Both the position numbers and the translations under genes were made by a program. Source: a virus. Taken from it: a stretch of 64,000 nucleotides of DNA. The DNA is taken from positions 35,767-99,766 of IMG/VR virus record IMGVR_UViG_3300032235_000653. One strand, written 5' to 3'. Shown piece by piece: positions 4,931 to 64,000 of this stretch. The notes beneath the pieces are model-generated. The model was not told where the DNA came from. It saw only the letters and a list, made by a program, of their open reading frames with translations, and searched no databases. How positions within the stretch are numbered: position 1 is the stretch's first letter; each line of letters opens with the position of its first letter.

Positions 4931-5222
4931 TTTAAATTCAAAATCTATTTGGAAAAACATTCTTAAAGAAGTTGAAAAGAGGGAAGTACCTATACATGTT
5001 TTAGAAAAACTTATGGTACATCTTAAAGACGGTACTATGGTCACAGTTGATATTAAAAAACTGTTGGCCGAAGGTGCAGATCCCGACGAAATAGAACAAC
5101 ATGTTTCTAGTAGACTCGATGAATTAGATTTATATATAGACAACGTAGATTTTTTTGTAGACATCGATTTAGTAGAAAAAACAGTACAACCAGAAACAGA
5201 CAGGCTATTATCTAAACTATGA
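4884..5222 (+). CDS. hypothetical protein
   Basis: 112 aa, ATGA-coupled to DHFR. Confidence 0.7.
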   Translation: MAQQNPKKQSKPKKLNLNSKSIWKNILKEVEKREVPIHVLEKLMVHLKDGTMVTVDIKKLLAEGADPDEIEQHVSSRLDELDLYIDNVDFFVDIDLVEKTVQPETDRLLSKL

Positions 5223-5722
5223 TCAAGGCAATTTTTGCTGTAGATCACTGGGGAGGAATGGGGTTTAACGGTTCATTGCCGTGGCCTCATCATCCCGAAG
5301 ATTTACAATATTTCAAAGAACAAACCATGGGAGACATTGTCGTCATGGGAAGAAAAACATGGGATGATCCCAAAATGCCAAAACCGTTGCCTGGACGTAT
5401 AAATTACGTAGCAACAAATAAACCCATTTTTGGTTATGGCATTACTACTATCCGCGGAGATCTGCAGGAAAATATTCGTAAAATTCAAAATGTATATCCA
5501 AAAAAAACAATTTGGATTATCGGCGGGCCTGACATTTTGATGGAAACTCGAGATTTAGTAGATCAAGTTCATATTACTCATTTCAAAGGTCAGTTCAGAA
5601 CTGACCGGCAAATTGACTTAAAAAAATATTTAAGTTTATTCAGAGCTACCAGTGCTGCAACTAGTTTAGACAAAAAATGTTCCTGGATGACTTATAAAAA
5701 TATTGACATATTCCGTCAATAA
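5219..5722 (+). CDS. folA: dihydrofolate reductase
   Basis: GMGFNGSLPW, DLQYFK, VVMGRKTW, PLPGRIN, IIGG motifs. Confidence 0.95.
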   Translation: MIKAIFAVDHWGGMGFNGSLPWPHHPEDLQYFKEQTMGDIVVMGRKTWDDPKMPKPLPGRINYVATNKPIFGYGITTIRGDLQENIRKIQNVYPKKTIWIIGGPDILMETRDLVDQVHITHFKGQFRTDRQIDLKKYLSLFRATSAATSLDKKCSWMTYKNIDIFRQ

Positions 5723-7847: not shown

Positions 7848-8938
7848 TTCCATTTTTTGGAGTAAAAAGGCAATACGCCAATTTACGAAAAGAAATACTG
7901 GATGTAGTGGACACTGTCTATAGTACAGGTCAAGTCTTAGACGGACATTACACTAAAGAGTTTGAAAAGCAAATTGCGAAAAGATGTCATCGCCGATATG
8001 CTGTTGCAGTTAATAGTTGCAGTCAAGGTTTGCTGTTTGCTCAACAAGTTTTGTTCTTAGAGAATACAAAAATTCTCATTCCCACTATTAGCTTTGTTTC
8101 TACTATTAACAGTGTATTGCTAAATGGCAATGAACCAGTGTTGTGTGACACGGATGATCAAGCGTTAATAAATTTAGAAAGCTTAGACTACGCTATTAAA
8201 GGGGCAGGGGTACAAGGTATTATGTATGTTAACCTGTTTGGCAATACAGTTGACTGGGACCGGTTTAAGATGACCACAGAATTCTTTAATCAAGATTTGA
8301 AAATCATCGAAGATGCGGCGCAGAGTTTTGGCGCTAGCTATAAAGGAATGCCCAGCGGAGCATTAGGTGATATCAGTGTATTAAGTTTTGACCCTACAAA
8401 AAATTTACCCAATTACGGTAGTGGCGGTATGATACTGACAGATGATTTAGAAATAGCCGCTTCTCTGAGAGATCTACGAGATAATGGCAAAACCAGAGGA
8501 CACGAAAACCCGGGCACTAACAGTAAAATGAGCGAAGCAGACTGTGCTCAGATGTTAGTTAAGCTTGAATATTTTAATGCCTGGCAATCTCGTCGAACAC
8601 AAATTGCAGAATATTATAACGCCGAACTAAACGATTGCGTTGACACACCTAAGACCACAGAAGGCACTGTTCATGCTTGGCACAAGTATGTAATTAAGCT
8701 GAATGATCGAAACGGATTAAAACATCATTTAGCAATTAAAGGAGTAGAAACTAAAGTACACTACGAAGCTCCGCTATACGAGCATCCAGTGGGATATCCT
8801 TACATTAACTATGCGTCAGAACTATATAGAGAAGCCAGCGCATTTTGCCAAGAGTGTTTAAGTTTGCCTATCTATCCTGAATTAACAGATTCTGAAGTTG
8901 AATCTATTGTAGAATCTGTTAAAGAATTTAATTCTTAA
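7829..8938 (+). CDS. DegT/DnrJ/EryC1/StrS family PLP-dependent sugar aminotransferase
   Basis: IIEDAAQSFGA, SFDPTKNL (PLP lysine), GGMILTDD, LSLPIYPEL; start codon uncertain. Confidence 0.92.
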   Translation: MEVKTIIPFFGVKRQYANLRKEILDVVDTVYSTGQVLDGHYTKEFEKQIAKRCHRRYAVAVNSCSQGLLFAQQVLFLENTKILIPTISFVSTINSVLLNGNEPVLCDTDDQALINLESLDYAIKGAGVQGIMYVNLFGNTVDWDRFKMTTEFFNQDLKIIEDAAQSFGASYKGMPSGALGDISVLSFDPTKNLPNYGSGGMILTDDLEIAASLRDLRDNGKTRGHENPGTNSKMSEADCAQMLVKLEYFNAWQSRRTQIAEYYNAELNDCVDTPKTTEGTVHAWHKYVIKLNDRNGLKHHLAIKGVETKVHYEAPLYEHPVGYPYINYASELYREASAFCQECLSLPIYPELTDSEVESIVESVKEFNS

Positions 8939-58993: not shown

Positions 58994-60766
58994 ATGTTTA
59001 AGATTAAATCACTGTCAGTTAAAAACTTCATGAGCGTGGGCAATGCTACCCAGGGTATCGACTTCGATCGCAACGATTTAACTCTTGTGTTAGGCGAAAA
59101 CTTAGACTTGGGCGGTGATGACAGCGGTGCTCGAAATGGAACTGGTAAAACTACTATCATTAACGCATTGAGCTACAGTCTGTTCGGCCAGGCACTAACT
59201 AATATTAAAAAAGACAATTTGATTAATAAAACTAACAGCAAACACATGTTAGTTACCATTGATTTTGAATCCGAAGGTCGCCGTTATAGAATTGAACGGG
59301 GTCGTAAACCAAATGTACTAAAGTTTTACGTAGACGACGAAGAATTAGAAACCAAAGACGATAACAGTCAGGGCGACAGTCGCGAAACACAATTAGAAAT
59401 TGAACGACTGTTAAACATGAGCCACGATATGTTCAAACATATTGTTGCTCTAAATACATACACAGAACCATTTTTAAGTTTAAAAGCCAATGATCAACGA
59501 ACTATCATTGAACAATTGTTGGGTATTACTGTACTGTCAGAAAAAGCCGAAGCTCTTAAAGAGCAAAACAAATCCACTAAAGACGCAATTCAACAGGAAG
59601 AATTTCGAATTAAAGCTGTAGGCGATGCAAACAAACGAATTCAAGATCAAATCGATGCGCTGATTCGTCGACAAACATTGTGGACTAATAAGCACAAAGA
59701 TGATATTGCATCATTACAGGCAGCATATGATCAGCTCGCAGAATTAGACATAGAGTCTGAGTTAGACGCTCATAAAAAACTAGCAGAATATAATACAAAA
59801 AGTAAACAAATAGCTGATTTTAAAACTTTGGTTAAGCGCTGCGAACAAGACGAAACCAGAGAAACCAAGGAGATAGAAAAGCTTAAAAAAGAAATTTTGG
59901 CTTTAGAAAATCATACTTGTCATAGCTGTGGGCAATCATTTCATGATGCCAAACAAGTAATTGTTTTGGAAGAAAAACAAAAAACACTGCAAGAAACTGC
60001 ATTGCAAGCATTGGCTACTAATACACAATTGCTGGAAAATCAAGAAGCTCTCAACCTACTAGGCGAGCTGGGACAGAAACCAGTGACATTTTATAAAGAC
60101 GAAAGCGATGCTTTTGAACATCGTAGCAGCATGGCATCTGTTCTTACACAATTAAATTCTAAACAGTCAGAACAAGACCCGTACACAGATCAAATTAATG
60201 ATATGAAGGAAACGGCTGTTGAAGAAATAAATTATGATTATATGAATTCATTGGTACGAATTAAAGATCATCAAGAATTTTTACTTAAGTTATTAACCAA
60301 TAAAGATAGTTTTATTCGTAAAAAGATCATCGATCAAAATCTAAGCTACTTAAATGCAAGATTGGGATTTTATTTAGATAAAATCGGTTTACCGCATACT
60401 GTTAAATTCAACAATGACTTATCTGTTAGTATCGAAGAACTAGGTCGTGAACTAGACTTTGATAATTTAAGTAGGGGCGAGCGTAACAGACTTATACTCA
60501 GTCTAAGTTGGTCCTTCCGAGACGTCTGGGAAAGTTTGTATCAACCTATTAATTTATTGTTCATCGACGAGCTTGTTGATAGCGGTATGGATGCTAGTGG
60601 TGTTGAAAATAGTTTAGCAATTTTAAAGAAAATGAGTCGAGAAAGTAACAAGTCTGTATGGCTAGTGTCACACAAAGACGAACTGGCTGGGCGAGTAAAC
60701 AACATACTTACTGTTGTTAAAGAAAACGGTTTTACTAACTATAATACAGATATTGAAGTTGTTTAA
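58994..60766 (+). CDS. gp46: recombination ATPase subunit, gp46/Rad50-like
   Basis: KNFMSVG, NGTGKTT, coiled coil with CHSC hook, LSRGE, FIDE, VSH. Confidence 0.95.
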   Translation: MFKIKSLSVKNFMSVGNATQGIDFDRNDLTLVLGENLDLGGDDSGARNGTGKTTIINALSYSLFGQALTNIKKDNLINKTNSKHMLVTIDFESEGRRYRIERGRKPNVLKFYVDDEELETKDDNSQGDSRETQLEIERLLNMSHDMFKHIVALNTYTEPFLSLKANDQRTIIEQLLGITVLSEKAEALKEQNKSTKDAIQQEEFRIKAVGDANKRIQDQIDALIRRQTLWTNKHKDDIASLQAAYDQLAELDIESELDAHKKLAEYNTKSKQIADFKTLVKRCEQDETRETKEIEKLKKEILALENHTCHSCGQSFHDAKQVIVLEEKQKTLQETALQALATNTQLLENQEALNLLGELGQKPVTFYKDESDAFEHRSSMASVLTQLNSKQSEQDPYTDQINDMKETAVEEINYDYMNSLVRIKDHQEFLLKLLTNKDSFIRKKIIDQNLSYLNARLGFYLDKIGLPHTVKFNNDLSVSIEELGRELDFDNLSRGERNRLILSLSWSFRDVWESLYQPINLLFIDELVDSGMDASGVENSLAILKKMSRESNKSVWLVSHKDELAGRVNNILTVVKENGFTNYNTDIEVV

Positions 60767-62471
60767 TTTTAACAAAATCGACGAATATCAAATTGAGCTG
60801 ACTACTTACTGTAATGCAGCGTGTCCACAATGCCCTCGAAATATTAATGGTGGACGTATAAACCCACACTTAAAATTAGAGCATTTGTCAAGAGCTGTTA
60901 TAGATCAAGCGTTTTCCACTGATCTATGTAATAGACTAAGACAAATATTTTTCTGTGGTAGTTATGGTGATCCTATCATGCATCCAGATTTTCTGGACAT
61001 ACTTTGGGACTTTAGACAAAAATCGCCTAAATTATGGCTTTACATGCATACAAACGGCGGAGCGCACGATACTGAATTTTGGCAAGAGATTGCTTATATT
61101 TTAAACGGTCACGGTCAAGTTGATTTTAATATAGACGGTCTCGAAGATACAAATCATCTATATAGGCGCAATACTGATTTTAATAAAATCATTAAAAATG
61201 CAAAAGCATTTATTGATGCAGGGGGCAGGGCTGTTTGGAACTTTATTGTGTTCGAGCATAACCAGCATCAAATTAAACAAGCAGAACAACTAAGCAAAGA
61301 ACTGGGATTTGAAAAGTTTTTGTATCGTTCAACTGGGAGATTCTTAAATCACAGGACCATGACAACGTTTGACGAATGGCCTGTAGTAGATCGCAATGGC
61401 AATAAAATCTATAGCATAAAACCGACAACTAGTGTAGAATTTACAAATCGCAGTATTAACAACCTGCCTGTATTGCAGGAAAAGTACGAAGATTTTACAG
61501 ATTATTTTAAAAATGTAGAAATAAAATGTGATTCGTTAACTCATAAAAGAGTTGCTATTAATGCACACGGGCTTGTTTTACCTTGCAATATGCTTAATCA
61601 TAATTTGCACGATGCAAGATTTTATGACGACAATGTAATGCCTTGTAGCAATAGCTTGAGTACCGTGGACAAAAAGAATCAAGTTGCAGAATTTATCAAA
61701 CAACACAATGAACAAAGCCTAAACATAAAAAGCAATAGTCTAGAACAAATATTCAAAAGTACATTTTGGTCTGCCTTGGAAAAAAGTTGGAGCTGTAATA
61801 GTTTTCCAGAACGTATTTTTGAGTGTGCATTGACTTGTGGAAAACAATTTACAAAAGTTTGGGATCAAACAAAAATGAAAAAGAAATTTTTAATAACGGG
61901 CGGCAACAGAGGGCTAGGTCTTTCACTGGCAACGCATACCAATGGCCAAAGTGTTAGCAGAGCAGAGGGATACGATATTACTAAAAATGATGACATTCAG
62001 CGCATTGCTCAGAAGAGTCTCGAGTATGATGTTTTTATCAATAATGCGTTTGACGGTCCTCCACAAGAAGCATGGGCTAATTTTGCACAAACTAACTTGT
62101 ATATGGCTGTCTACGATGCGTGGAAAACTGCCAATAAGCAGGGCTGGATTATCAATATCGGTAGTTCAGGATCCAAATCTATAGTTGCACCCGAACCCAG
62201 ATTTGAAACATATCGTATTAGTAAGGCTGCACTAGAACATGCTAGCAAGCAAGGCACACAAGCATTTAAACAAAACAAAGTACCTTTTAAAACAACATTA
62301 ATCACTTTAGATAGATTAGACACTGAATTAAGCAGAAATCGTTCAAACTGGACAGGTAACGGCATTGATTTGACTGATGTGTATAATTTTATCGACTATG
62401 GCTCAAACATAAATCCAAACACCTGCATAGAAGAAATAACATTTTATTGTAACTTAGACTATCTGGCATAA
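60759..62471 (+). CDS. radical SAM/SPASM-like protein fused to a C-terminal short-chain dehydrogenase
   Basis: CNAACPQC, GSYGDP, C-terminal C..PC..CALTC; then MKKKFLITGGNRGLG, INNA, IINIGS, YRISK. Start is probably TTG 60753 or 60759. Confidence 0.85.
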   Translation: MFNFNKIDEYQIELTTYCNAACPQCPRNINGGRINPHLKLEHLSRAVIDQAFSTDLCNRLRQIFFCGSYGDPIMHPDFLDILWDFRQKSPKLWLYMHTNGGAHDTEFWQEIAYILNGHGQVDFNIDGLEDTNHLYRRNTDFNKIIKNAKAFIDAGGRAVWNFIVFEHNQHQIKQAEQLSKELGFEKFLYRSTGRFLNHRTMTTFDEWPVVDRNGNKIYSIKPTTSVEFTNRSINNLPVLQEKYEDFTDYFKNVEIKCDSLTHKRVAINAHGLVLPCNMLNHNLHDARFYDDNVMPCSNSLSTVDKKNQVAEFIKQHNEQSLNIKSNSLEQIFKSTFWSALEKSWSCNSFPERIFECALTCGKQFTKVWDQTKMKKKFLITGGNRGLGLSLATHTNGQSVSRAEGYDITKNDDIQRIAQKSLEYDVFINNAFDGPPQEAWANFAQTNLYMAVYDAWKTANKQGWIINIGSSGSKSIVAPEPRFETYRISKAALEHASKQGTQAFKQNKVPFKTTLITLDRLDTELSRNRSNWTGNGIDLTDVYNFIDYGSNINPNTCIEEITFYCNLDYLA

Positions 62472-62508
62472 ATTAAAGTACATATCATGGAAATCGTACA
62501 AATACAAT

Positions 62509-62943
62509 ATGACTTGGTTATTCGAAGGCTCTGAGGTTGAGAATTTACCCGACAGTTGTGTTGGATTTGTATATCTTATCACAAACAAATCAACAAACAA
62601 AAAATACATTGGCAAAAAACTGGCAAAATTTAGTAAAACTACGCAACGAACAGTAAAATTAAAAAACGGTACAAAAAAGAAAAAGAAAATTCGCTCAAAG
62701 GTCGATTCGGACTGGAGAGATTATTATGGATCAAGTCCTGAATTAAAAAGGGACGTAGAAACACTGGGCTTAGAAAATTTTACTAGAGAAATTCTTTATT
62801 ATTGTGAATCAAAAGCAATTTGTAGTTATATTGAAGCAAGAGAACAATTTACCAGGCGTGTATTAGAATCAGATGAATATTACAACGGCATAATCGACTG
62901 CCGTATCCATGGCTCCCATATAAAAAATAAGTTAAGCATTTAA
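62509..62943 (+). CDS. stand-alone GIY-YIG family nuclease
   Basis: GFVYLITN...KYIG, WRDYYGSS, F.REIL, IEAREQ, YYN; Lys-rich insertion; no C-terminal DNA-binding repeats. Confidence 0.85.
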   Translation: MTWLFEGSEVENLPDSCVGFVYLITNKSTNKKYIGKKLAKFSKTTQRTVKLKNGTKKKKKIRSKVDSDWRDYYGSSPELKRDVETLGLENFTREILYYCESKAICSYIEAREQFTRRVLESDEYYNGIIDCRIHGSHIKNKLSI

Positions 62944-62948
62944 GACTC

Positions 62949-63353
62949 GCACAAGTCAATATCATGTGCCCTAGACCTGGATCTCGGATCGCAGGGATGG
63001 AAGACTCACCGTGCTAGTGAGCACTCAACCACTACCCGAAAGGATGAGGATTGCCAATGCCGCAATTTGGTTGTTTGAAAAGGATTAATAGGCTAAAAAG
63101 ACGTAGCAGTGATGCTACACGGTTTATATGTATGTTAGCGTATAGATATAAACCTGCCGTTGTGATAAGAACTGAGCTCGAGGTACCGGACAACCGCCTC
63201 TGTAACTGCTTTAACGCTAATGACTGTGCTACTCGGATGAAGCATTATCATTTTTGCCCTGTGCGGGCAAAGTGTGACTGATTAATCTGGATGAAACTTA
63301 TATCGCTTCGCTCTTTAATTAAAATATATCACTGAGCGACAGCGAAAGTGATA
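62949..63353 (+). ncRNA. putative structured non-coding RNA (unassigned family; strand inferred)
   Basis: Intergenic region with many helices, GAAA and GTGA (GNRA) tetraloops on the + strand, and a possible 7-bp pseudoknot. Confidence 0.55.
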
Positions 63354-63371
63354 GATGTGCTACGCACATCT
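63353..63371. terminator. hairpin at the convergence of the + and - transcription units
   Basis: AGATGTGC-tac-GCACATCT abutting the stop of the gp51-like gene; no clear U-tract. Confidence 0.4.
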
Positions 63372-63589
63372 TAAAAGAATGGTAATCCTGTTTCTTTTGT
63401 AGTATTGATGTTGTCTTCGATGATACCATTAATGATTTCTCTTTCTTGAAAACTTATTTCCAAAGCTTCGCTATAAGTTATTCCACCCCTCATGTGCCAA
63501 CAAATTTTTAATATATTCTTCTTAAGGGCTTTTGAATCTTTCTCGAAGTCTTTAATCATTTCGACGATCGATTCATTATCTAAACTCAA
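63371..63589 (-). CDS. baseplate hub assembly protein, gp51-like
   Basis: ICWHMRGGITYSEA....ERE pattern; follows a gp26-like gene. Confidence 0.6.
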   Translation of the reverse strand: MSLDNESIVEMIKDFEKDSKALKKNILKICWHMRGGITYSEALEISFQEREIINGIIEDNINTTKETGLPFF

Positions 63590-63594
63590 AAGCC

Positions 63595-64000
63595 TTATAC
63601 GAAAAAACTTGCTTGCTCAAAAACTAATGGGGTTTCATAGGGTTTGTTACAGTCTTCGTGTTCACACGTTATAGGAACTTTTTTAAGTGGGCTTTGTTCT
63701 CCAAAGCTTTCTAACTTTGATTTAACTGAGTCCCACACTGTTTTATTGCAATTTTGAAAGAATTCATGAATCTGTTCCGGATTTTCTACTACAACACCTT
63801 CTTCGGTTTTAACCCCAGCTACACTTATACTGATTTGTTCAACTGTTAGAGTTAATAATCTTTGAAAAACAACATTGAATTTTGCTAATTTTTCTTCTTC
63901 ACTCAACGAGTCATCTCCCACTACAGATAATAATCGTTGATGCTCGTAGTTTTCTAAACTGGCTTTGTTAAATTGTTGGTAATCATGAGGCTTGATATAA
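63595..64000 (-). CDS. baseplate hub subunit, gp26-like (5' end outside window)
   Basis: Frame is open to the window end (YIKPHDYQQFNK...); C-terminal ITCEHEDC...FEQASFFV. Confidence 0.6.
   Translation of the reverse strand, partial: YIKPHDYQQFNKASLENYEHQRLLSVVGDDSLSEEEKLAKFNVVFQRLLTLTVEQISISVAGVKTEEGVVVENPEQIHEFFQNCNKTVWDSVKSKLESFGEQSPLKKVPITCEHEDCNKPYETPLVFEQASFFV

What the first reader, a model, noticed from the sequence alone, without database searches (positions are those of the whole stretch)
62509..63371. Minimal GIY-YIG nuclease followed immediately by a ~420-nt helix-dense putative ncRNA
Seen: the longest non-coding gap in this gene-dense window starts right after the nuclease stop and looks GC-richer than its flanks. 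Helices include CTCAC/GTGAG (63005-63021); CAACCA/TGGTTG (63026-63073) enclosing a CC-GAAA-GG loop and an ATTGC/GCAAT hairpin; GTAGCA-GTGA-TGCTAC (63103-63118); GGTTTATAT/ATATAAACC (63121-63154); GAGG/CCTC (63180-63200); and TTTGCCC/GGGCAAA (63253-63271). The apical TTAGCGT (63135-63141) is exactly complementary to ACGCTAA (63214-63220), a possible pseudoknot. The nuclease has only the catalytic domain plus a Lys-rich insertion (TVKLKNGTKKKKKIR), without the DNA-binding tail of I-TevI/Seg homing enzymes. Inference: a co-transcribed structured RNA that may form an RNP with, guide or inhibit the nuclease, or an independent large phage RNA. I do not recognise the family.
Basis: partly seen in the sequence, partly recalled or inferred. 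Interest (0 to 1): 0.8.

Follow-up and report, generated by a model that had tools for sequence, protein, structure and literature searches.

The report
Full-length Polynucleobacter-1 phage RNA
The gene-free stretch behind a small nuclease gene of this uncultured freshwater T4-like phage encodes a real, roughly 435-base, multiply knotted non-coding RNA; its first third is an RNA motif catalogued in 2010 with no known function, the rest is uncatalogued, and the nuclease looks like a constant neighbour, not a required partner.

Summary

The family is partly known. Window 62944-63076 (+) is a full-length match to Rfam RF01718, Polynucleobacter-1 (114 bits, cut-off 37). Its 2010 description already placed it downstream of the gene family to which this nuclease belongs (PSSM2_218).

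What is not in Rfam or in the papers I could search:
- The RNA runs from 62936, inside the last codons of the nuclease gene, to about 63371.
- It has four pseudoknots.
- A 3' domain is shared with a second class that has an unrelated 5' domain.
- Two 7-letter words are identical to each other in 102 of 102 RNAs while differing between phages.

A nuclease-RNA particle or guide is not supported. The locus is syntenic (gp55-gp47-gp46-nuclease-RNA). A complete phage genome has the nuclease without the RNA. Some RNAs follow an unrelated PD-(D/E)xK nuclease or no nuclease. No guide-like end was found.

This scan has found the same RNA on many other genomes. My results were reached before I read those notes and agree with them.

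The parts
62509..62943 (+). 144-aa stand-alone GIY-YIG nuclease gene. It belongs to PF19835, phrog_447 and T4-GC213, the family of PSSM2_218, which is widely mis-annotated as 'NAD synthetase'.
   Evidence: Pfam E 2.4e-32. PHROG E 1.8e-37. AF2 pLDDT 92.6. VIA-align: I-TevI catalytic domain Z 8.2, PD-T4-3 Z 7.1, T4 EndoII Z 5.3, UvrC N-terminal domain Z 5.3. 36% identical to PSSM2_218, E 6e-17.
62936..63371 (+). Full-length structured RNA of about 435 nt.
   Evidence: Conserved end to end directly behind the nuclease in relatives. 97 covarying pairs. G-U far outnumbers A-C, which fixes the strand.
62936..62940 (+). PK0, 5' strand. It lies in the last sense codons of the nuclease ORF and pairs with the P3 loop at 63011-63015.
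   Evidence: 78-95% standard pairs, up to 6 pair types, double changes in 30-37 sequences at two pairs.
62944..63076 (+). 5' domain, the Rfam RF01718 Polynucleobacter-1 motif. It holds S1 (62944-47/62954-57, an H-type knot with P1), P1 (62949-53/62965-69), P2 (62976-82/62988-95), P3 (63003-09/63017-22), P4 (63026-31/63068-73), P5 and P6 (63049-54/63062-67).
   Evidence: cmscan 114.3 bits against a cut-off of 37, model positions 1-141 of 141. Per-pair covariation.
63103..63118 (+). P7 hairpin. It follows an A-rich linker at 63077-63102.
   Evidence: 5 pair types and 19-31 double changes per pair.
63122..63154 (+). P8 long hairpin. Its loop at 63135-63140 is the 5' strand of pseudoknot PK1.
   Evidence: 12 pairs with 4-6 pair types each.
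63215..63220 (+). PK1, 3' strand.
   Evidence: 92-100% standard pairs. GC<->AU double changes in 12-13 sequences.
63160..63212 (+). P9 (63160-63 with 63190-93, inside the P10b loop, so another pseudoknot), P10 (63173-77/63208-12) and P10b (63179-83/63197-202). The loop holds the near-invariant GGUACCGGACAACCGCC.
   Evidence: P9 is 95-100% standard pairs with 13-29 double changes. P10 has up to 48 double changes.
63231..63242 (+). Box A, ACUCGGAUGAAG. The 7-nt word GGAUGAA is at 63235-63241.
   Evidence: Identical to the box B word in 83 of 83 type-A and 19 of 19 type-B RNAs, 11 different words in all.
63252..63272 (+). P11 hairpin, UUUGCCC/GGGCAAA.
   Evidence: Conserved. Covariation mainly at one pair, which shows 6 types.
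63285..63296 (+). Box B, AUCUGGAUGAAA. The 7-nt word is at 63289-63295. Like box A it is preceded by AAGUG(UG)AC-N6.
63297..63326 (+). Linker that varies strongly in sequence and length, A/U-rich. Many relatives have a small covarying hairpin with a UUC(G) loop here; in this window it is weak.
   Evidence: Alignment A1.
63327..63353 (+). P12 hairpin with the conserved loop UGAGCGnnAGCGAAA, which contains a small GC stem capped by a GNRA-type loop and flanked by G/A-rich strands.
   Evidence: 4-5 pair types and 18-37 double changes per pair.
63353..63371 (+). P13 terminal hairpin. No U-tract follows. In many relatives TATAAATA (T4 late-promoter consensus) and a + strand gene come next. Here the stop codon of a minus-strand gene comes next.
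   Evidence: 96-100% standard pairs, 14-38 double changes. Alignment A1. Promoter and terminator scan.

Best explanation
Window 62936-63371 (+) encodes the full-length form of the RNA whose 5' third is catalogued as Polynucleobacter-1 (RF01718). It is an autonomous, conserved non-coding RNA gene of a lineage of uncultured freshwater T4-like phages.

Shown:
- About 17 helices and four pseudoknots.
- A fixed position at the end of the gp55-gp47-gp46-(variable genes)-nuclease block.
- Two modules: a 3' domain (P9-P13) shared by all, and at least two unrelated 5' domains.
- Two single-stranded 7-nt words that are always identical within one RNA and differ between phages.

Inferred:
- It is made by read-through from the nuclease gene, since no promoter of its own was found and its first helix starts in the ORF's last codons. 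It then persists as a stable folded RNA.
- It works by presenting the two identical words to a bivalent or repeated partner: a dimeric protein, or a nucleic acid that fits either box.
- The nuclease is an operon neighbour, not the partner.
For: - Rfam match.
- Conservation of the whole gap.
- Covariation statistics.
- Synteny in about 120 loci.
- Of 106 full-length RNAs found without reference to the nuclease, 101 have it 0-100 nt upstream, except four where other genes lie between (775-1050 nt). The exceptions carry PDDEXK_15, with an RNase H gene between in one locus, or no nuclease.
- The nuclease occurs without the RNA in a complete genome and in about 24 of 80 loci.
- Type-B RNAs share only the 3' domain.
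- The two words are identical in 102 of 102 RNAs.
- No conserved late-promoter box lies upstream of the RNA.
- A metatranscriptome contig spans 62735-63088.
- The 2010 description places the motif downstream of PSSM2_218 homologues.
Against: - No direct evidence for a discrete transcript. Only assembled contigs were available, nothing covered 63089-63371, and DNA carry-over cannot be excluded.
- The near-universal adjacency, and PK0 overlapping the stop codon, could still mean a functional tie to the upstream gene.
- No reader of the two words was found.
- The two words could be read as DNA rather than RNA.
Confidence: 0.6

Rival explanations
1. Cis-acting 3' UTR. The fold controls or protects the nuclease mRNA, for example PK0 forms or melts as ribosomes reach the stop codon, or the knotted 3' end blocks 3'-5' exonucleases.
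For: - PK0's 5' strand lies in the last codons.
- The RNA starts within 10 nt of the stop in most loci.
- No promoter of its own.
- A contig bridges the junction.
Against: - 435 nt with four knots and invariant unpaired stretches is far more than stabilisation needs.
- The same RNA follows an unrelated nuclease, an RNase H gene or an amidoligase-like gene.
- In several loci 0.2-1 kb separates the nuclease from the RNA.
- Nuclease genes elsewhere do without it.
Confidence: 0.18
2. Nuclease-RNA particle. The RNA guides, targets or inhibits the GIY-YIG nuclease.
For: - About 95% adjacency.
- The nuclease lacks a DNA-binding domain.
- A second nuclease fold can occupy the same slot.
Against: - A complete genome has the nuclease and no RNA.
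- The same RNA and the same words sit next to PDDEXK_15.
- No variable terminal segment.
- No nuclease column tracks the words beyond controls.
- Weak distance correlation.
- About 500 phage records have the nuclease family, and none matched the 428-nt gap by blastn.
Confidence: 0.08
3. Homing target. The RNA gene is a conserved landing site beside which selfish nuclease genes (GIY-YIG, PD-(D/E)xK) insert and spread. This is compatible with the best explanation for the RNA itself.
For: - Two unrelated nuclease families sit in the same slot.
- The nuclease is 69% identical in a phage whose gp46 is 26% identical, so it moves horizontally.
- The region between gp46 and the RNA is variable.
Against: - Occupancy is about 95%, not sporadic.
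- There is one copy per genome.
- There is no DNA-binding domain.
- The family is near-universal in cyanomyovirus records.
Confidence: 0.12
4. A DNA-level element. The two words are repeated binding sites for a DNA-binding protein (iteron- or operator-like), and part of the conservation is not RNA-based.
For: Direct repeats that change in concert are typical of protein-binding DNA sites. Their spacing is 48-57 bp.
Against: - The surrounding helices show strand-specific G-U pairing.
- The boxes sit in strongly conserved single-stranded context within the fold.
- The variable spacing argues against helical phasing.
Confidence: 0.05

Closest known systems
Polynucleobacter-1 RNA motif (Rfam RF01718; Weinberg et al. 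2010, Genome Biol 11:R31, PMC2864571)
   Same: Window 62944-63076 matches the whole 141-position model at 114 bits. The habitat is the same (fresh water, estuary). The gene context is the same: downstream of the GOS11034 / PSSM2_218 family, which is this GIY-YIG nuclease.
   Different: The catalogued motif is only the 5' third. It does not include PK0, S1, P7-P13, PK1, the P9 knot or the two boxes. The 2010 authors found no instance in a purified phage. Here it sits on phage contigs in a T4-like replication and recombination module. A second class keeps the 3' domain but lacks RF01718 altogether.
GOLLD, ROOL, OLE and HEARO: large ornate bacterial and phage RNAs (Weinberg 2010/2017; Kretsch et al. 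2025, PMC12286853)
   Same: A large, multi-domain, heavily conserved RNA found by comparative genomics, phage-associated, with no known biochemical function.
   Different: No Rfam match to any of them. It is smaller (about 435 nt). Oligomerisation was not tested. HEARO is a guide RNA for IsrB, whereas no guide segment is seen here.
I-TevI / Seg-type GIY-YIG homing endonucleases and T4 EndoII (DenA)
   Same: The upstream protein has the GIY-YIG fold. The best structural match is the I-TevI catalytic domain, and it matches PF19835, the SegE GIY-YIG domain.
   Different: There is no linker or DNA-binding domain. A Lys-rich beta-hairpin is inserted. There is one copy per genome at a syntenic position. 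EndoII is a weaker structural match (Z 5.3) and was not detected by sequence.

Membership tests
Rfam RF01718 Polynucleobacter-1 | Covariance-model score at or above the curated gathering score, over the whole model. | tested here: met
   114.3 bits against 37, model positions 1-141 of 141, E 5e-24.
Rfam RF01718 Polynucleobacter-1 | The model's helices are kept by compensatory changes. | tested here: met
   P1, P2, P3, P4 and P6 are 79-100% standard pairs with many double changes in 85 sequences.
Rfam RF01718 Polynucleobacter-1 | Located downstream of a GOS11034 / PSSM2_218-like gene (supplement of Weinberg 2010). | tested here: met
   The upstream ORF is 36% identical to PSSM2_218, E 6e-17, and both belong to T4-GC213 / phrog_447.
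GIY-YIG nuclease superfamily (PF19835 SegE_GIY-YIG) | Profile match and GIY-YIG fold. | tested here: met
   Pfam 112 bits against a cut-off of 25. I-TevI catalytic domain Z 8.2, rmsd 2.7 A over 82 residues.
GIY-YIG nuclease superfamily (PF19835 SegE_GIY-YIG) | Catalytic residues kept (the Tyr of GIY and of YIG, Arg, Glu, Asn). | tested here: inconclusive
   Y22, Y33, G35, E109 and N126 are invariant and R93 nearly so in 21 homologues. I did not map them residue by residue onto I-TevI.
Seg / I-TevI-type free-standing homing endonuclease | A C-terminal DNA-binding domain that gives site specificity. | tested here: not met
   The protein is 144 aa and the Pfam match covers residues 3-129. The model shows one domain plus a beta-hairpin.
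Seg / I-TevI-type free-standing homing endonuclease | Sporadic presence among close relatives, and mobility. | tested here: inconclusive
   About 95% occupancy and one copy per genome argue against it. 69% identity in a phage whose gp46 is 26% identical argues for horizontal transfer.
RNA-guided nucleases (OMEGA IscB/IsrB/TnpB, CRISPR-Cas) | Obligate co-occurrence of the protein with its RNA. | tested here: not met
   A complete genome, G003, has the nuclease and no RNA. RNAs occur with PDDEXK_15 or with no nuclease.
RNA-guided nucleases (OMEGA IscB/IsrB/TnpB, CRISPR-Cas) | A variable guide segment at one end of a conserved scaffold. | tested here: not met
   The 5' end is PK0 and the 3' end is the P13 hairpin. 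The only very variable stretch is internal and A/U-rich. No complement of the 7-nt words was found in 1.1 Mb of phage contigs.
Group I intron carrying a GIY-YIG gene | A group I core, with flanking exons of one interrupted gene. | tested here: not met
   No Intron_gpI match at E up to 10. The upstream gene ends with its own stop. The downstream gene is on the other strand or has its own late promoter.
Type III toxin-antitoxin | Tandem repeats of a short RNA upstream of an endoribonuclease toxin. | tested here: not met
   The RNA is downstream, is not a tandem array, and the protein has a DNA-nuclease fold.
T4 endonuclease II (DenA) | Specific similarity to EndoII above other GIY-YIG enzymes. 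| tested here: inconclusive
   2wsh scores Z 5.3, below I-TevI (8.2) and PD-T4-3 (7.1). No sequence match to any PDB chain. In cyanophages the family lies near nrdB, as denA does in T4; the cyanophage position is, the T4 comparison is from memory.

The most novel reading that the evidence does not exclude
The full-length RNA is a new class of large phage RNA machine, either a ribozyme or an RNA or RNP scaffold. Its two always-identical, fast-changing 7-nt words would base-pair with a rapidly evolving nucleic-acid target of the host or the phage. That would be a bivalent, sequence-programmable recognition module unrelated to known guide-RNA systems.
Probability: 0.12. Interest if true: 0.85.

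Novelty: new variant of a known kind. Interest (0 to 1): 0.5.

Why it matters
An orphan motif that Rfam has carried since 2010 as a 141-nt 'sRNA' turns out to be one module of a roughly 435-nt, four-knot RNA. That RNA is a fixed part of the replication and recombination gene block of a widespread group of uncultured freshwater T4-like phages.

RNAs of this size and intricacy have often turned out to be ribozymes, guide scaffolds or self-assembling particles. The two words that always change together give a concrete handle for finding the partner.

It also corrects a widespread mis-annotation: 'NAD synthetase' for a GIY-YIG nuclease in about 500 phage records.

It is not new to this scan. The same RNA has been reported on many other genomes.

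Tried and rejected
- **Other Rfam families.** With permissive thresholds nothing else scored in 62400-63700. The other rows were at E 1.7 to 8, far below their cut-offs.
- **tRNA or tmRNA.** None in the window.
- **Isolated phages.** blastn of the gap against 50,697 phage records gave no match.
- **Bacterial genomes.**
  - 120 pattern matches were all chance hits in GC-rich genomes; the nhmmer profile found none.
  - Nuclease homologues occur only on MAG contigs with scattered taxonomic labels, probably phage contigs placed in the wrong bin.
- **Own promoter.** No conserved TATAAATA-like box in the 70 nt upstream in 85 loci. No sigma-70-like site on the + strand.
- **Expression.** Only assembled contigs of four metatranscriptomes were available. 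One 354-nt contig bridges the ORF and the first 145 nt of the RNA. Nothing covers 63089-63371, so ends and levels cannot be read.
- **Coding potential.** The 76-aa ORF at 63051-63281 is not conserved.
- **Reader of the two words.**
  - No complement inside the RNA: 55 own hits against 60 control hits.
  - None in the flanking loci. The apparent + strand excess comes from the common AT-rich word and a gp46 codon run.
  - None with conserved flanks in eight long contigs, 1.1 Mb in all. The best pair matched 34 of 60 flank letters, and in 34 loci the word lay near that gene in only 2.
  - No helix between the segments flanking the boxes beyond cross-sequence controls.
  - No column of the nuclease, the two downstream minus-strand proteins or the 93-aa protein tracks the words beyond controls. 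The gp46 and gp47 signals look like clade structure.
- **EndoII orthology.** Not specifically supported.
- **Co-evolution of nuclease and RNA.** Spearman 0.23, lower than gp46 with RNA at 0.39.

Full report
**What is at the coordinates**

The ORF at 62509-62943 (+) encodes 144 aa. It matches PF19835, the SegE GIY-YIG domain, over residues 3-129 (E 2.4e-32), and PHROG 447, whose label is 'NAD synthetase'.

An AlphaFold model built on 21 homologues is confident (pLDDT 92.6). Its best structural neighbours are all GIY-YIG enzymes:
- I-TevI catalytic domain, Z 8.2
- the 5hmC-specific enzyme PD-T4-3, Z 7.1
- T4 EndoII, Z 5.3
- UvrC N-terminal domain, Z 5.3

The Lys-rich segment is a beta-hairpin insertion, and there is no second domain.

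Downstream, no gene follows on the + strand. The next ORFs (63371-63589, and 63595 onwards) are on the minus strand. The gap is GC-richer than its flanks, 0.40-0.47 against 0.31-0.35.

**Known part**

Rfam's covariance models give one hit above threshold in the whole window. Positions 62944-63076 (+) match RF01718, Polynucleobacter-1, at 114.3 bits (gathering score 37), covering model positions 1-141 of 141. Nothing else in 62400-63700 scores, even at E up to 10.

The only papers in the searchable library that mention the motif or its accession are Weinberg et al. 2010 (PMC2864571) and two genome papers that list the accession. The 2010 supplement makes these points:
- The motif occurs in environmental samples and in one Polynucleobacter genome.
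- Its 3' half is not always detected.
- Most examples lie downstream of genes of family GOS11034, 'with possible homology to PSSM2_218'.
- No example was seen in a purified phage.

I checked the gene family. PSSM2_218 (T4-GC 213, annotated 'NAD synthetase') is 36% identical to the window's nuclease, E 6e-17. So the nuclease-RNA adjacency was on record in 2010, although the gene was not recognised as a nuclease.

**The RNA is three times longer than the catalogued motif**

I collected 80 viral contigs by the nuclease and, separately, 120 by a 14-base pattern from the RNA's 3' part.
- BLAST and an nhmmer profile show that the whole gap, not only the first 133 nt, is conserved at about 70-80% identity directly behind the nuclease.
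- I aligned 85 non-redundant full-length copies.
- I searched for covarying columns without assuming a structure and then counted each proposed pair.

Supported helices, in window coordinates:
- PK0: 62936-40 with 63011-15
- S1: 62944-47 with 62954-57, an H-type knot with P1
- P1: 62949-53 with 62965-69
- P2: 62976-82 with 62988-95
- P3: 63003-09 with 63017-22
- P4: 63026-31 with 63068-73
- P5
- P6: 63049-54 with 63062-67
- P7: 63103-07 with 63114-18
- P8: 63122-33 with 63142-54
- PK1: 63135-40 with 63215-20
- P9: 63160-63 with 63190-93, inside the P10b loop
- P10: 63173-77 with 63208-12
- P10b: 63179-83 with 63197-202
- P11: 63252-59 with 63265-72
- P12: 63327-32 with 63348-53
- P13: 63353-59 with 63365-71

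Overall figures:
- 97 pairs with 91.1% standard pairs.
- Shuffles give 74.1 +/- 0.3%, and partners slid by 1-3 columns give about 39%.
- 77 pairs carry double (compensatory) changes.
- G-U cells (833) far outnumber A-C cells (125), so the + strand is the folded strand.
- No ORF is conserved: the median longest ORF is 30 aa.

Single-sequence folding energy does not discriminate between strands (z -2.5 on +, -3.2 on -).

**Features that extend the Rfam entry**

1. PK0 pairs the P3 loop with the last sense codons of the nuclease ORF, so the fold begins inside the gene.
2. There are four pseudoknots: PK0, S1/P1, PK1 and P9/P10b.
3. About 22 loci ('type B') keep only the 3' domain (P9-P13) behind a different conserved 5' region of similar length. 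Rfam does not recognise that region. The 3' domain is therefore the common core, and Polynucleobacter-1 is one interchangeable 5' module.
4. There are two single-stranded boxes: ACUCGGAUGAAG at 63231-42 and AUCUGGAUGAAA at 63285-96. Each is preceded by AAGUG(UG)AC-N6, and each contains a 7-nt word. The two words are identical to each other in 83 of 83 type-A and 19 of 19 type-B RNAs, although 11 different words occur. This is identity, not complementarity, so the two boxes do not pair with each other.

**Relation to the nuclease**

Gene order is the same in nearly all loci: gp55 (late sigma factor), gp47, gp46, optional genes (a 93-aa protein, a radical SAM/SDR fusion), nuclease, RNA, 0-3 kb of variable genes, then two conserved minus-strand genes. 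The locus is a syntenic part of a T4-like genome, not a roaming cassette.

Of 106 full-length RNAs found without reference to the nuclease, 101 have it 0-100 nt upstream, except four where other genes lie between (775-1050 nt). The two are nevertheless separable:
- Five loci have a PF24608 PDDEXK_15 nuclease in its place, with an RNase H gene between it and the RNA in one of them.
- One locus has an amidoligase-like gene instead and no nuclease.
- About 24 of 80 close nuclease homologues (66-77% identity) have no RNA and sit in another context, mostly followed at once by a membrane-protein gene.
- A complete 161.9-kb phage genome with terminal repeats has one nuclease copy at 69% identity. It has no RNA by Rfam, BLAST or either nhmmer profile, and its gp46 is only 26% identical.
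- Every genome checked has a single copy.
- The nuclease family is present in about 500 isolate phage records, mostly cyanomyoviruses, none of which matched the 428-nt gap by blastn.
- Pairwise distances of nuclease and RNA correlate weakly (Spearman 0.23), less than gp46 and RNA (0.39).
- There is no variable segment at either end that could serve as a guide.

These results argue against an obligate nuclease-RNA particle. They fit an operon neighbour, possibly with the nuclease gene itself moving horizontally.

**Transcription**

- No T4-late-type box is conserved upstream of the RNA, and the + strand has no sigma-70-like site.
- In many relatives TATAAATA follows P13 and starts the next gene.
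- P13 has no U-tract.
- Lake-water DNA runs hold the stretch. Four metatranscriptomes hold parts of it, but only as assembled contigs.
- One 354-nt contig (62735-63088, three differences) bridges the ORF and the RNA. This is a weak hint of co-transcription and cannot show ends, strand or level.

I found no complementary site:
- inside the RNA;
- in the flanking loci;
- with conserved flanks in eight long contigs carrying six different words, 1.1 Mb in all. The best candidate failed in 34 further loci.

No neighbouring protein has alignment columns that follow the words beyond controls. A bivalent partner, either a dimeric protein or a repeated or alternating nucleic-acid site, is inference only.

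**Earlier notes of this scan**

After reaching the above, I looked up earlier notes. The same RNA had been reported on at least 84 other genomes, with the same reading: an extended Polynucleobacter-1 RNA, 'twin boxes', and the nuclease as a neighbour. My results agree and were obtained independently up. Those notes prompted the partner search.

**Verdict**

The thing is a longer, modular form of a known orphan RNA family. Its function is unknown. The most likely reading is an autonomous structured phage RNA made from the end of the nuclease transcript.

Noticed in passing
L018:3430-3840, also L004, L007, L055, L084, L103, L108 and others: A second RNA class ('type B'). It has the same 3' domain and the same pair of identical words, but an unrelated conserved 5' domain of similar length that no Rfam family matches.
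   Followed up: partly
L023:1976-2400, L025:3426-3592, L040:3435-3537: Behind the nuclease there is other GC-rich conserved non-coding sequence that my profile barely matches. It may be a third kind of 5' domain.
   Followed up: no
L171:3911-4304, 5169-5240 and 8395-8836: A viral contig with a permuted (two-piece, alpha-type) tmRNA and a tRNA. It also has the RNA, preceded by a 649-aa amidoligase-like gene and no nuclease.
   Followed up: partly
G003 (L341-L349), nuclease at 369-791: A complete 161.9-kb phage genome with terminal repeats. Its nuclease is 69% identical to the window's, while its gp46 is only 26% identical, and it lacks the RNA. The nuclease gene seems to have moved between distant phage lineages.
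   Followed up: partly
window 62509-62943; L405:26712-27149 (PSSM2_218); L203:2953-3408: The family phrog_447 / T4-GC213 is annotated 'NAD synthetase' in hundreds of phage records, but it is a GIY-YIG nuclease by profile and by fold.
   Followed up: yes
L126:3963-4484, L195:8819-9385, L105:1198-1719 (-): A PF24608 PDDEXK_15 nuclease of 173-188 aa occupies the slot upstream of the RNA in place of the GIY-YIG gene. In L105 an RNase H gene lies between it and the RNA.
   Followed up: partly
window 60714-62471: A 585-aa fusion of a radical SAM domain and a short-chain dehydrogenase-like domain. It overlaps the end of gp46 and is present in only some relatives.
   Followed up: no
window 63329-63345 (-): A terminator-like hairpin followed by TATATTTTAA on the minus strand lies inside P12. 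It could end the convergent minus-strand gene in this particular phage.
   Followed up: no
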